A stretch of 64,000 nucleotides of DNA from Leucoraja ocellata. Its lineage: Eukaryota. Position 1 is the stretch's first letter. Each line of letters begins with the position of its first letter. The translations under genes and the position numbers were made by a program. Below the pieces are notes generated by a model. That model saw only the letters and a list, made by a program, of their open reading frames with translations. It searched no databases and was not told the DNA's origin. Of this stretch, positions 6,691 to 63,421 are shown piece after piece. The DNA is taken from positions 186,001 to 250,000 of the forward strand of contig JAWMAR010001507.1 of the NCBI GenBank assembly GCA_036785375.1, read 5' to 3'.

Positions 6691-7971
6691 ATGGATGTCA
6701 ATCAGTCATATGATGTACTGTAAAAACAGATAAAAGTGCTGGAGTAACTCAGTGAGTCAGACAACAAACCTGAAAACACGGATAGGTAATTTTCGGGGAC
6801 AGTTTCTTCCCAGCAATTATCAGGCAACTGAACCATCCTACCAACAACTAGAGAGCAGTCCTGAACTACTATCTACCTCATTGGGGATCCTTAGACTATC
6901 TTTGATCGAATCTTACTGGCGTTATCTTGCACAAGACTTTATTCCCTTTATCGTGTATCTGTAAAATGTGGATGGCTCGTTGTAATCATGTGTTGTCTTT
7001 CCGCTGACTGGTTAGCACGTGACAAAAGCTTTTCACTGTACCTCGGTACACGTGACAATAAACTAAACTCAGGTGACTTTTTGGGTCGAGACCCTTTTTC
7101 AGACTGACTGGTGTTATGTAAAGTTGAACATTTAGATAAGTAATTGGCTTGCAGGATCTATTGGTATTTTTTTCATTCCCACAATTCTTCCAAAGTTATT
7201 TTGGAAAAAGCTCAGACAGTCTATTTGAAATAACAGAACCGTGTCTAGATTAGTTTCCAACAAACTATCCCAAATCCCAAAGATAAACTTTAAAATGGGG
7301 CTAGCAAACAATTTGCTGAGCATCCAGCACATTCAAAAAGATGCACCAATATACACAGAATAAAGGGTTAATGGCAGGAACTAATGCAATCCCTAACATT
7401 TGCTAAATAGGAGCAACTGATTAAAATGGAACATTTGGATGAAACAGTTTGATGCCAGTAATGATTGCTGTGCTGTCCTTGTAACTAAACAAGATGTCTA
7501 CTCTTTGAAAGTATCATTCGGCAGAGCCCACACACAAGAGGAAATAAGATTTATTCAGAATGCTGAACATGGGGCAATTAAAAATATATATTTCCACAAA
7601 AAAATGTGATAATACGAGGTTTGAGAATAAGACTTACTTGTGTGATGGAAAGGGCATGAGTTACAACTGACATTCAGTGAGACATGGAACTGACAAATTA
7701 CCTTTGCAGTAATTCTAACCACTAATTATTGTCATTTATCAAATTTAGAAGTGTTTACTTTGCTGCTTGAGTGATCCACTTCAAGTGACAGATTGACCTG
7801 AATGGCTCAATTCTGATCTGCAAATTCTCTGCAACAGGAAATATCCAAGGTAGCAAACAATCAAATCTTTATTTCTAACGCATCTCGGAAACAAAATGTT
7901 TGAGTACATTGCTCTCCAAAATATATCTTTTATGCAATCAGCCATGCAGAAATATCAACATAGAGGGTTAC

Positions 7972-8115
7972 CTGCTCTTGCAGTTTCTGAAACATGAAGG
8001 GGTGTGGATGGGCAAGCATGTTCTCAGTGAGACGAGACTGTCCCTCCACATTCACCTGCGTTGCTGCCTTACTGCACAGGTAGGTCTTGTATATCTGCTG
8101 TGCCTTGCCATGAAG
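7972..8115 (-). CDS. RGS10: RGS10 coding exon 4 (RGS domain; [48 protein letters not shown])
   Basis: 144 nt, phase 0/0; acceptor aag|CTT, donor CAG|gtaac; [10 protein letters not shown] and HPxMFQKLQ are diagnostic of RGS10. Confidence 0.95.
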
Positions 8116-12094: not shown

Positions 12095-12181
12095 CAGGTT
12101 TTCATCTTGAATTTTCTTGAATTCTTCACATTCTAACCAGAACAAAACATTTTCTTCACTAAATTCACGTTTTAGAAAATT
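12095..12181 (-). CDS. RGS10: RGS10 coding exon 3 ([29 protein letters not shown])
   Basis: 87 nt, phase 0/0; ccatag| acceptor, |gtaggt donor; FL..EFSEEN..FWLxCE RGS signature. Confidence 0.96.
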
Positions 12182-61491: not shown

Positions 61492-61567
61492 CAGTTTACT
61501 GTAGAATGACACAAATCCATAGCCTTTGGATTTACCCGTTGCCAGATCTTTTACAACGCGAGCATCC
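61492..61567 (-). CDS. TIAL1: TIAL1 exon, RRM2 RNP1 ([25 protein letters not shown]); upstream coding exons lie beyond the window
   Basis: 76 nt, phase 2/0; tttcacag| acceptor, CTG|gtaagt donor. Confidence 0.97.
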
Positions 61568-62017
61568 CTGTGAAAATAGATACAAGTTAATGAGTAAAAT
61601 AGGTAAAACACCCTTGAACAAAATAAAAAGGAACCACACACTGTATTGTCAGCACGTCTTTTTTGAAACAAAAAGGGATTATTATAATCCCACCATAACA
61701 TAATTAATTGTTCTATCCTTTTGTTATAACTTAACTTTCCATGTAGCAATAAATAGCAAACATGCAAACTCTGGTATCCTGAGCTTGGTTTCACCTATTA
61801 TATTGAACTGGAAACCATGAACTCAATAGTTTTTAAAAACACAGACCTTCACTGCCACTAAACTGAGAAAGTCTTCAGTACAAATACAAGTTTCCAATTT
61901 TCCTTAACCATGCATTTCTATATAGACCCTTTAAAATGCGTGTTCTACCTAGCCACACAGATAATTGAAATATAAAAATTCAGAAAAGAGAAAAAAAATA
62001 GGAATTAAAAGGCATAC

Positions 62018-62090
62018 ATCGCCTGTTAACTGAATTCTTTATTTTTCGTGGTATGGTCAATTCTCTACCCTCTTTTTGGACTGTGGGCAG
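62018..62090 (-). other. TIAL1: Putative TIAL1 poison cassette exon (6B-like)
   Basis: ttacag| acceptor, GAT|gtatgc donor followed by a U-rich tract; in-frame TGA after CPQSKKRVEN. Confidence 0.7.
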
Positions 62091-62316
62091 CTGTAAATTT
62101 TGAAAAATTGAGACTTTCAGAAATTTAGAAAATGAATATGAAACTAAAACAATACTAAGCACACCAGTACGAACAACATTTACATAGGATTCGTAAGCAC
62201 GTCAATAGGATTGGGAATACGAAATTCGCACTATATAGAGCACATTAAAATGTTAACAATCAAGTCTAATAAATTTATAAAAAAGAGAATAAATAGAAAT
62301 GAGAAAAAAAAACTAC

Positions 62317-62394
62317 AACTGAGTTAATGAACTTCCAGTGTGCACAGTTCCTTGCAGTTAGCCATGGGGATCCTGTCCATTCTTAACAGCAATT
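62317..62394 (-). other. TIAL1: Putative TIAL1 poison cassette exon (6A-like)
   Basis: ttttacag| acceptor; reads IAVKNGQDPHG* (TAA at 62358-62360); weak donor GTT|gtagtt followed by a long U tract. Confidence 0.78.
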
Positions 62395-63259
62395 CTGTAA
62401 AATAACCAGAATGCTATTACTTTTAATTATGACTTGGAACTACAAAAAATCTGCACATTACTCCAGTATTTTCTGTAGCCGGTGTACAAGCAGTCTTACA
62501 ATTGTTCTTCTGTTGAAATTTAAACGAACTTATTTACTAGTATTTAGATAAATGAGGTAGATGAGAAGTACAAAAGCAATACATGCTGGACCAAAGCCAT
62601 TGCAATGCAAATAGCCAACAGTGACGTAAAGGGTACTCAATAAGAGTGCAGGCATAAGTGCAAACAAGCAGAGTATTTCAAGAAAAGTATTAATCGATGG
62701 CTTTAAATATATTTTACAATGTAACAGGTACTGAGCCTCATTTTAATAATTAAGGAGCCAGGAAACAGCAAGCATAAAAGGATGATGCAATGGCCCTGGC
62801 ATGCACTTGGAAATATTTCTGAAGTCTGCCAGCAGCATCTATTGGTAGGAAACCGATACTACATGTTAACATATTGCCCAATTACAAATGCCTGCTGCTT
62901 TAGCTTTAGCTATTGGTGCATGATGGGGAAAAATGGCATTCACATCATAAAACAGTGAGTTTTTTTAATAGCTATTTGTTGTGATGAAGATACAATTTGT
63001 TGCCAAATCAGCACAAATTGCTGGAAAAACCTACGTCCAATTGGCATCAAAGGTGAGATCTCGCCGTCAACCTCCCCATGCATATAAAGCAAGTTGTTGG
63101 ACTTGTTTCCTAGAAATTAGGACTATGTTAAAGGGGCAACTAGTGCTACTCAACTACAGAGGAATAGAAAGGGATCAAAACCAATGGCCCATCTTATTAG
63201 TTACTTCATTCTACAATATTTTTCCTCAACTACCTTCCTATCAAATCTAATTCTTAAAT

Positions 63260-63421
63260 TTTTAAGAAGGAACTGCAGATACTGGAAAAATCAAGACATA
63301 AAATGCTGGAGAAACTCAGTGGGTGAGGCAGCATCTATGGAGAAAAGGGGTCTGAAGGGGTCCTTTTCTCCATAGATGCTGCCTCACCCGCTGAGTTTCT
63401 CCAGCATTTTTTGTCTACTTT
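63260..63421. mobile_element. PLE-derived foldback element
   Basis: Near-perfect inverted arms; exact 12-bp flanking duplication TAATTCTTAAAT at 63248-63259 and 63422-63433. Confidence 0.75.

What the first reader, a model, noticed from the sequence alone, without database searches (positions are those of the whole stretch)
62281..62410. TIAL1 poison exon apparently homologous to the TIA1 alternative exon: ancient autoregulatory switch
Seen: 78-nt exon 62394..62317 with a strong acceptor, reading IAVKNGQDPHG-stop in the TIAL1 frame, and a weak donor gtagtt followed directly by tttttttctcatttctatttattctctttt. Recalled: the truncated human TIA1 isoform ends VSLKNGQNCPG-stop from the exon at the equivalent position. 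Inference: the exon, its stop position and the KNGQ peptide predate both the TIA1/TIAL1 duplication and the chondrichthyan split. Peptide-level similarity hints that the RRM1-only product may matter beyond NMD. The ORF track does not show this exon.
Basis: partly seen in the sequence, partly recalled or inferred. Interest (0 to 1): 0.7.

Follow-up and report, generated by a model that had tools for sequence, protein, structure and literature searches.

The report
Twin poison exons shared by TIA1/TIAL1
A cartilaginous fish's TIAL1 splicing-factor gene carries two small stop-codon exons in one intron, and its sister gene TIA1 carries the same two, so the self-limiting switch known from mammals likely predates the split of the two genes; it is an old copy of a known mechanism, not a new one.

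Summary
The exon is real: 62394-62317 (minus strand), 11 codons then a stop, weak donor, U-rich tract, in a skate-like TIAL1 gene. The same genome's TIA1 holds a homologue (80% over 132 nt), and amniote TIA1 and TIAL1 isoform models end in matching tails, so the exon and its stop predate the duplication. B's donor is the one seen spliced (1 of 4 runs). Two RBFOX-type motifs below B are also shared. The 'peptide matters' idea is not supported: silent sites are as frozen as the others, sequence after the stop is equally conserved, and models from 7 species shift the frame or lose the stop. Use of exon A in this lineage was not shown; lamprey is untested. TIA1/TIAR autoregulation through such exons is published for human and mouse. 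I found no paper on their shared origin, but the founding paper was not readable. The scan held no earlier TIA1/TIAL1 note. New member of a known kind.

The parts
62317..62394 (-). Exon A: 78-nt stop-codon cassette exon, homologue of mammalian TIA1 exon 6A
   Evidence: 80% identity over 132 nt to own-genome TIA1; matching isoform tails in bird and turtle TIAL1 and in mammal, bird and lizard TIA1
62358..62360 (-). In-frame TAA of exon A (codon 12 of the exon); same position in own-genome TIA1
62395..62420 (-). Acceptor region of exon A (16 nt identical with TIA1 across the splice site); predicted to sit in a local hairpin in TIAL1 only
   Evidence: hairpin z -3.0 in TIAL1, -0.7 in TIA1
62281..62316 (-). 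Weak donor of exon A (4 of 9 matches to the recalled U1 consensus) and U-rich tract (22 of 30), predicted TIA-binding site
   Evidence: counted by eye; equivalent donor in teleost models and in snake and cod read-through tails
62018..62090 (-).
   Evidence: 85% identity over 160 nt to own-genome TIA1; donor joined to the next exon in run X5; matching tails in pig and ptarmigan TIAL1 and zebra finch TIA1 models
61982..62017 (-). Weak donor of exon B (5 of 9 matches) and U-rich tract (21 of 30); 38 nt across this donor are identical in the two paralogues
61899..61914 (-). 16-nt word identical in TIAL1 and TIA1, starting with TGCATG (RBFOX motif, recalled), about 105 nt below the B donor
   Evidence: 1 of 1000 shuffles gives a shared word this long
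61758..61770 (-). 13-nt word identical in TIAL1 and TIA1 containing a second TGCATG
   Evidence: 14 of 1000 shuffles reach 13 nt
61492..61567 (-). Next constitutive TIAL1 exon (second half of RRM2); the upstream constitutive exon lies outside the window (G000:C65, about 6222550-6222640)

Best explanation
This intron of TIAL1 holds two stop-codon exons (A and B), each with a weak donor followed by a U-rich tract and each with a homologue in the same genome's TIA1; they likely form a feedback switch, inherited from the single ancestral gene, in which TIA1/TIAL1 protein would bind the U tracts, promote inclusion and send the message to nonsense-mediated decay. Shown here: the anatomy, the paralogue homology, in-frame stops with at least six junctions downstream, and splicing of the B donor to the next exon in one public run. 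Taken from mammalian papers: TIA proteins activate such exons on their own pre-mRNAs, and the mouse Tia1 isoform is NMD-sensitive and modulated by Rbfox2. Inferred: that the same holds in this fish; that A is included here (alone, joined to B, or as one 377-nt exon from the A acceptor to the B donor); that the shared TGCATG words are RBFOX sites that tune the threshold; and that selection acts on the RNA sequence, the KNGQ peptide being a by-product.
For: Paralogue alignment: A 105 of 132 and B 136 of 160 identical, as high as the flanking coding exons (83 of 99, 73 of 96), rest of a roughly 7-8 kb intron unalignable. Paralogue-specific residues agree between this fish and amniotes (A position 2: Ala in TIAL1, Ser in TIA1; B: VEN-stop in TIAL1, KKG in TIA1), so the split is old. 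Human 6A siRNA sequences in PMC4286123 match the stop region. Joints B donor to next exon, skip 450, GT..AG, depths 70.8 and 77.5 in X5, 1 of 4 runs. 7 of 38 listed chondrichthyan TIAL1 entries begin Met + next exon, which in this locus only the B junction creates. No silent-site excess: 1 of 16 identical residues differ in codon in A+B against 26 of 48 in flanking exons, p 0.0009 (counts by eye). Published autoregulation.
Against: No junction for exon A was seen: its own ends were not in the laid stretch, the loose ends at the next exon's acceptor were the upstream constitutive exon in 4 of 4 runs (3 records not shown), and 0 of 54 listed chondrichthyan entries (38 TIAL1, 16 TIA1) end in the A tail. 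The X5 contig over B runs 13 nt past B's acceptor, so B may often be used with upstream intron unspliced. PMC4286123 reports a stable human sTIA-1 protein and that human TIA-1 overexpression did not induce 6A in their cancer cells. Sardine models include A in frame without a stop. For A alone the codon tests are borderline (p 0.05 and 0.07). TIA dependence and NMD were not testable.
Confidence: 0.8

Rival explanations
1. The exon is kept mainly to make a short RRM1-only protein with a KNGQ tail that acts on the full-length protein.
For: 18 named amniote entries keep the 11-residue tail and stop. A human 144-aa sTIA-1 was detected with a peptide antibody and proposed to act as an inhibitor (PMC4286123 passages).
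Against: Differences between the paralogues before the stop fall 3/1/2 on codon positions 1/2/3, against 6/3/25 in flanking exons (by eye). Ten codons read in another frame across and after the stop are identical between this fish and a snake and 9 of 10 in sea bass, more than the 8 of 11 peptide identity with turtle. Frame or stop differ in models of crow, zebra finch and Tasmanian devil TIA1 and of gopher snake, cod, wrasse and sardine TIAL1; these are gene models and some may be assembly errors.
Confidence: 0.07
2. The blocks act mainly as decoys or a detained-intron element: the B donor is spliced while the upstream part of the intron stays, the RNA is held in the nucleus or stops at the TAA that follows the upstream exon directly, and discrete exon A is a minor form.
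For: The X5 contig across B continues into the intron above its acceptor; X1 has a contig over the A-B gap. The upstream exon's donor reads TCG TAA in both paralogues, and 21 of 284 entries examined end exactly there.
Against: Gene models in teleosts and amniotes use the A and B acceptors discretely, one wrasse model joins A to B, and X5 shows the B acceptor used in TIA1. Contigs drop rare forms. This differs from the best explanation in route, not in outcome (less protein).
Confidence: 0.1
3. The similarity between the fish paralogues comes from gene conversion after the duplication, not from shared ancestry.
For: Runs of 32 and 38 identical nt around exon B; the fish paralogues share D-x-H-G at the tail end where amniote paralogues differ.
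Against: The genes lie on different contigs with different neighbours; both exons occur in both paralogues of amniotes; paralogue-specific residues are shared between fish and amniotes; the intron between and around the blocks is unalignable.
Confidence: 0.03

Closest known systems
Human/mouse TIA1 exon 6A and the TIAR (TIAL1) alternative exons of Le Guiner et al. 2001 (J Biol Chem 276:40638; not held, seen only as cited in PMC4286123, PMC3967051, PMC4385921, PMC5626838)
   Same: Same intron (inside RRM2), homologous sequence, 11 codons then a stop, weak donor followed by a U-rich stretch; PMC4385921 passages confirm induction of stop-codon exons on both TIA1 and TIAR pre-mRNAs by either protein.
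   Different: 78 nt here against 66 nt for human TIA1 6A; a cartilaginous fish; regulation untested here; the shared origin of A and of B in both paralogues was not stated in the passages I saw.
sTIA-1, the 144-aa product of human TIA1 exon 6A (PMC4286123, passages)
   Same: Same stop position and a similar tail; would hold RRM1 and part of RRM2.
   Different: No sign here of selection on the peptide; no protein evidence; reported from cancer cells and tissues.
Rbfox2-modulated Tia1 AS-NMD event in mouse ES cells (PMC3967051, passages)
   Same: An NMD-inclusion exon in a TIA gene with RBFOX-type motifs nearby.
   Different: The paper places the iCLIP signal upstream of the Tia1 exon and finds repression; the shared motifs here lie downstream of exon B, and binding is untested. 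The passages do not give the exon's coordinates.
Conserved poison exons of splicing regulators in general (PMC5626838, passage)
   Same: Negative feedback by unproductive splicing with sequence conservation beyond coding need.
   Different: Here a tandem pair of exons is traceable in both members of a paralogue pair.

Membership tests
TIA1/TIAR autoregulatory AS-NMD exons | Lies in a TIA-family gene, in the intron that splits RRM2 | tested here: met
   window exons match skate TIAR best; RGS-domain exons lie downstream as for the mammalian fused model P0080
TIA1/TIAR autoregulatory AS-NMD exons | Homologous to mammalian TIA1 exon 6A / TIAR alternative exons | tested here: met
   mammalian comparison rests on isoform tails and two siRNA sequences, not on genomic alignment; no mammalian TIAL1 entry with the A tail was retrieved (B tail: pig)
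TIA1/TIAR autoregulatory AS-NMD exons | Inclusion brings a premature stop more than 50-55 nt upstream of a later junction | tested here: met
   TAA 62360-62358 and TGA 62059-62057; seven coding exons follow
TIA1/TIAR autoregulatory AS-NMD exons | Weak 5' splice site followed by a U-rich stretch | tested here: met
   by eye: A 4 of 9 and B 5 of 9 consensus matches, 22 and 21 U of 30; flanking constitutive donors 6 and 8 of 9, 10 U of 30 for the downstream one; no MaxEnt score was computed
TIA1/TIAR autoregulatory AS-NMD exons | Included in transcripts | tested here: inconclusive
   B donor spliced in 1 of 4 runs; A not shown in this lineage
TIA1/TIAR autoregulatory AS-NMD exons | Inclusion rises with TIA1/TIAR and needs the U tract | not testable with these tools
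   published for human and mouse
TIA1/TIAR autoregulatory AS-NMD exons | Isoform is degraded by NMD | not testable with these tools
   published for mouse Tia1
Protein-coding alternative exon under peptide selection | Substitutions concentrate at silent positions | tested here: not met
   on counts by eye: A 1 of 8, A+B 1 of 16, flanking exons 26 of 48; two sequences only; A alone p 0.05
Protein-coding alternative exon under peptide selection | Reading frame and stop are preserved across species | tested here: not met
   kept in 18 named amniote entries and both fish paralogues, changed in models from 7 species
Protein-coding alternative exon under peptide selection | Stable protein product | not testable with these tools
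   reported for human TIA1 only

The most novel reading that the evidence does not exclude
The switch is not only destructive. Joining exon B to the next TIAL1 exon creates an in-frame AUG, seen as Met-initiated 249-252-aa models in sharks, skates, teleosts, reptiles, birds and marsupials and at the start of a 181-aa human cDNA product. High TIA levels could thus convert TIAL1 output into a form that lacks RRM1 and half of RRM2 but keeps RRM3 and the low-complexity tail. Against it: about 134 upstream codons make re-initiation unlikely, gene predictors simply take the longest ORF, and the fish TIA1 junction gives no AUG.
Probability: 0.05. Interest if true: 0.65.

Novelty: new member of a known kind. 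Interest (0 to 1): 0.35.

Why it matters
It dates a known feedback circuit: both stop exons, their weak donors, U tracts and two RBFOX-type motifs were in place before TIA1 and TIAL1 separated, so the mutual regulation of the two proteins is likely an inherited single-gene autoregulation and not two inventions. The slowly evolving fish paralogues mark which nucleotides matter, which is useful for designing minigenes or antisense oligonucleotides. It also warns that the tail of the reported cancer isoform sTIA-1 looks like a by-product of RNA-level constraint. The mechanism itself is not new.

Tried and rejected
Overall RNA structure over A-B: none beyond chance (z 0.10). A hairpin over the A acceptor scores z -3.0 in TIAL1 but -0.7 in TIA1, and the window was chosen after seeing the fold; not counted. 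Raw TGCATG counts are at chance level (9 against 8.2 and 7.5 expected); only the two paralogue-shared words are used. No run was on record as RNA (no RNA holder listed); spliced contigs show that the four laid runs contain RNA. Exon A's own junctions were not examined with reads. No scored splice-site table or intron-wide U-tract background was obtained; these values are by eye. Lamprey: 15 of 20 cluster members listed, none with an A or B tail; no lamprey DNA was available, so this is no evidence of absence. Le Guiner 2001 and 2003 are not held. A recalled pair of human TIAL1 exon lengths could not be confirmed (no relevant hit) and is not used. Paralogous-CNS supplements of PMC3595034: no TIA1 or TIAL1 in 4 files searched, one file not searched. 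Figures of the PMC4385921 supplement are pictures and could not be read; they may give the human exon maps.

Full report
OBSERVATION. On the minus strand, one search shows an acceptor AG ending at 62395, 78 nt of exon (62394-62317) and the donor GTT|GTAGTT followed by a T-rich run. The upstream constitutive exon is outside the window; on the matching contig C65 it ends two bases into a Ser codon, which puts the exon in the frame IAVKNGQDPHG-stop, TAA at 62360-62358. The gene is TIAL1: the window's exons match skate TIAR better than skate TIA1, and two RGS-type exons lie downstream at 12175-12101 and 8106-7969. The animal is a cartilaginous fish, most like the skate entry P0324. The acceptor is moderate (11 pyrimidines in -19..-4, by eye).

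THE PARALOGUE IN THE SAME GENOME. A search of G000 with the region gave, beside the window and a second copy on C65, a match on C33 at 80% over 132 nt. That locus is TIA1. Its exon reads ISLKNGQDFHG-stop, with the same stop position and the same 16 nt across the donor.

EXON B. The second block is another stop exon, 62090-62018 (73 nt), 226 nt below A and 450 nt above the next exon. It reads CPQSKKRVEN-stop, ends in GAT|GTATGC and is followed by 21 T in 30 positions (by eye). Against the recalled consensus CAG|GTAAGT the donors match 4 of 9 (A) and 5 of 9 (B), the flanking constitutive donors 6 and 8 of 9. Below B, two words of 16 and 13 nt are identical and collinear in both paralogues and each contains TGCATG, the RBFOX motif (recalled); 1 and 14 of 1000 shuffles give shared words that long. 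A third shared 13-nt word near the next acceptor has no such motif.

RNA. Contigs of 4 of the 24 runs listed were laid on the stretch from just below exon A's U tract to beyond the next exon. All four carry the ordinary junction from the upstream exon. One, X5, has two joints that skip 450 nt with GT..AG ends from the B donor to the next exon (depths 70.8 and 77.5, likely two alleles; a listed contig of the ordinary junction has 108.3; contig depth is not an inclusion level). The X5 contig over B runs 13 nt past B's acceptor, which suggests that the B donor is often used with upstream sequence unspliced: a 377-nt exon from the A acceptor, or a partly processed intron (inference). A TIA1-type contig in X5 enters B exactly at its acceptor from a further upstream intronic exon of TIA1. 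Exon A's own ends were not in the laid stretch, and no loose end showed A joined to the next exon (3 records not shown; a filter drops some), so inclusion of A in this lineage is open.

OTHER VERTEBRATES. Three protein searches and three cluster look-ups gave 480 proteins, whose ends were read. Exon A tails with the stop at codon 12 occur in 3 named TIAL1 entries (blackbird, ptarmigan, turtle: IAHKNGQDLEG) and 15 named TIA1 entries (for example mouse and a catarrhine: VSLKNGQNCPG; hummingbird; anole). The two siRNAs against human exon 6A printed in PMC4286123 match this stop region. Exon B tails occur in pig and ptarmigan TIAL1 (CPNSKMMVEN-stop, same stop position as here) and zebra finch TIA1. 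Seven of 38 listed chondrichthyan TIAL1 entries start with Met directly before the next exon; in this locus only B's final AT plus that exon's first G makes the ATG. None of 54 listed chondrichthyan entries ends in the A tail. Paralogue-specific residues agree between this fish and amniotes, so both exons predate the duplication and the cartilaginous/bony split. All these entries are gene models or unnamed predictions, not reads. Lamprey could not be tested at DNA level; 15 of 20 listed entries show no such tail.

PEPTIDE OR RNA. Counting by eye: in 53 codons of the two flanking exons the paralogues differ 6/3/25 at codon positions 1/2/3 and 26 of 48 identical residues use different codons; in A's 11 codons 3/1/2 and 1 of 8; in B's first 10 codons 2/1/0 and 0 of 8. 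Fisher tests give p 0.07 and 0.05 for A alone, 0.008 and 0.0009 for A+B. Ten codons read in another frame across and after A's stop are identical in gopher snake and 9 of 10 identical in sea bass, while the peptide is 8 of 11 identical with turtle. Models from 7 species shift the frame, move the stop or lose it (crow, zebra finch and Tasmanian devil TIA1; gopher snake, cod, wrasse and sardine TIAL1); the crow entry stands for three accessions, others rest on one genome each. The constraint is therefore on the nucleotides, and KNGQ is most simply a by-product. Against this stands one paper reporting a human sTIA-1 protein.

MECHANISM. TIA proteins bind U-rich RNA just after weak donors and help U1 snRNP engage (established knowledge; title of Le Guiner 2001 as cited). 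With more TIA1 or TIAL1, A and/or B would be included, translation would stop inside RRM2 with at least six junctions downstream, and NMD would remove the message. Because both genes carry both exons, each protein would limit both genes. RBFOX at the shared words may set the threshold. Anatomy, homology and B-donor splicing are shown; TIA dependence, NMD, RBFOX binding and use of A here are inferred. Confidence 0.8.

WHAT IS KNOWN. PMC4286123 (passages): human exon 6A, 66 nt, 11 residues and a stop, first described by Le Guiner 2001. PMC4385921 (passages and the text of supplement 1, part 1; figures unreadable): TIA1 or TIAR expression induces stop-codon exons on both pre-mRNAs. PMC3967051 (passages): the mouse Tia1 NMD isoform rises with Tia1 overexpression and Rbfox2 knockdown. 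PMC5626838 (passage) lists TIA1 and TIAL1 as AS-NMD autoregulators. PMC8980049 (passages) concerns other TIA1/TIAL1 events. Le Guiner 2001 and 2003 were not held; the chicken result of 2003 is recalled only. Ten searches (listings only unless named above) showed no paper on the shared origin of these exons or on cartilaginous fish, but the library lacks most subscription journals and the founding paper may have noted the likeness. The scan's own index had no look-alike stretch and no TIA1 note.

VERDICT. A real, deeply conserved element and an orthologue of a published switch. Added here: the second exon, RNA support for its donor, shared RBFOX-type words, dating to before the duplication, and evidence against selection on the peptide. 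New member of a known kind; interest 0.35.

Noticed in passing
G000:C33 about 10.13 Mb and 10.36 Mb (L003, L004); G000:C1507 and G000:C65: TIA1 appears twice on C33, 227 kb apart, with the same exon translations, and the window's region is repeated on C65 (100% over 321 nt); likely uncollapsed haplotypes in the assembly.
   Followed up: no
L027:7826-7914 (TIA1 intron, minus strand): A further cryptic exon in the TIA1 intron, about 1 kb below the upstream exon, is joined to the TIA1 exon B acceptor in run X5; its 3' end is shown, its 5' end (about 87 nt length) is inferred; no match in TIAL1.
   Followed up: partly
G000:C65 about 6222550 and L027:8815-8822: The donor of the upstream exon reads TCG TAA in both paralogues, so retention of this intron stops translation at once; 21 of 284 entries end there.
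   Followed up: partly
window 62383-62419: Predicted hairpin that pairs the acceptor AG of exon A (z -3.0, 2 of 200 shuffles) in TIAL1, not in TIA1.
   Followed up: partly
window 12101-12175 and 7969-8106, minus strand: Exons of an RGS-domain gene, probably RGS10, downstream of TIAL1.
   Followed up: no
window 61629-61641: A third 13-nt word shared by both paralogues near the acceptor of the next exon, without a motif I recognise.
   Followed up: no
P0082, P0280, P0281, P0284 (sardine TIAL1 models): The exon A homologue is modelled as an in-frame 23-residue insertion into RRM2 without a stop: either loss of the poison function or a model artefact.
   Followed up: no
window about 63320-63410: Short inverted pair of a dispersed repeat that also occurs in the TIA1 intron.
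   Followed up: no
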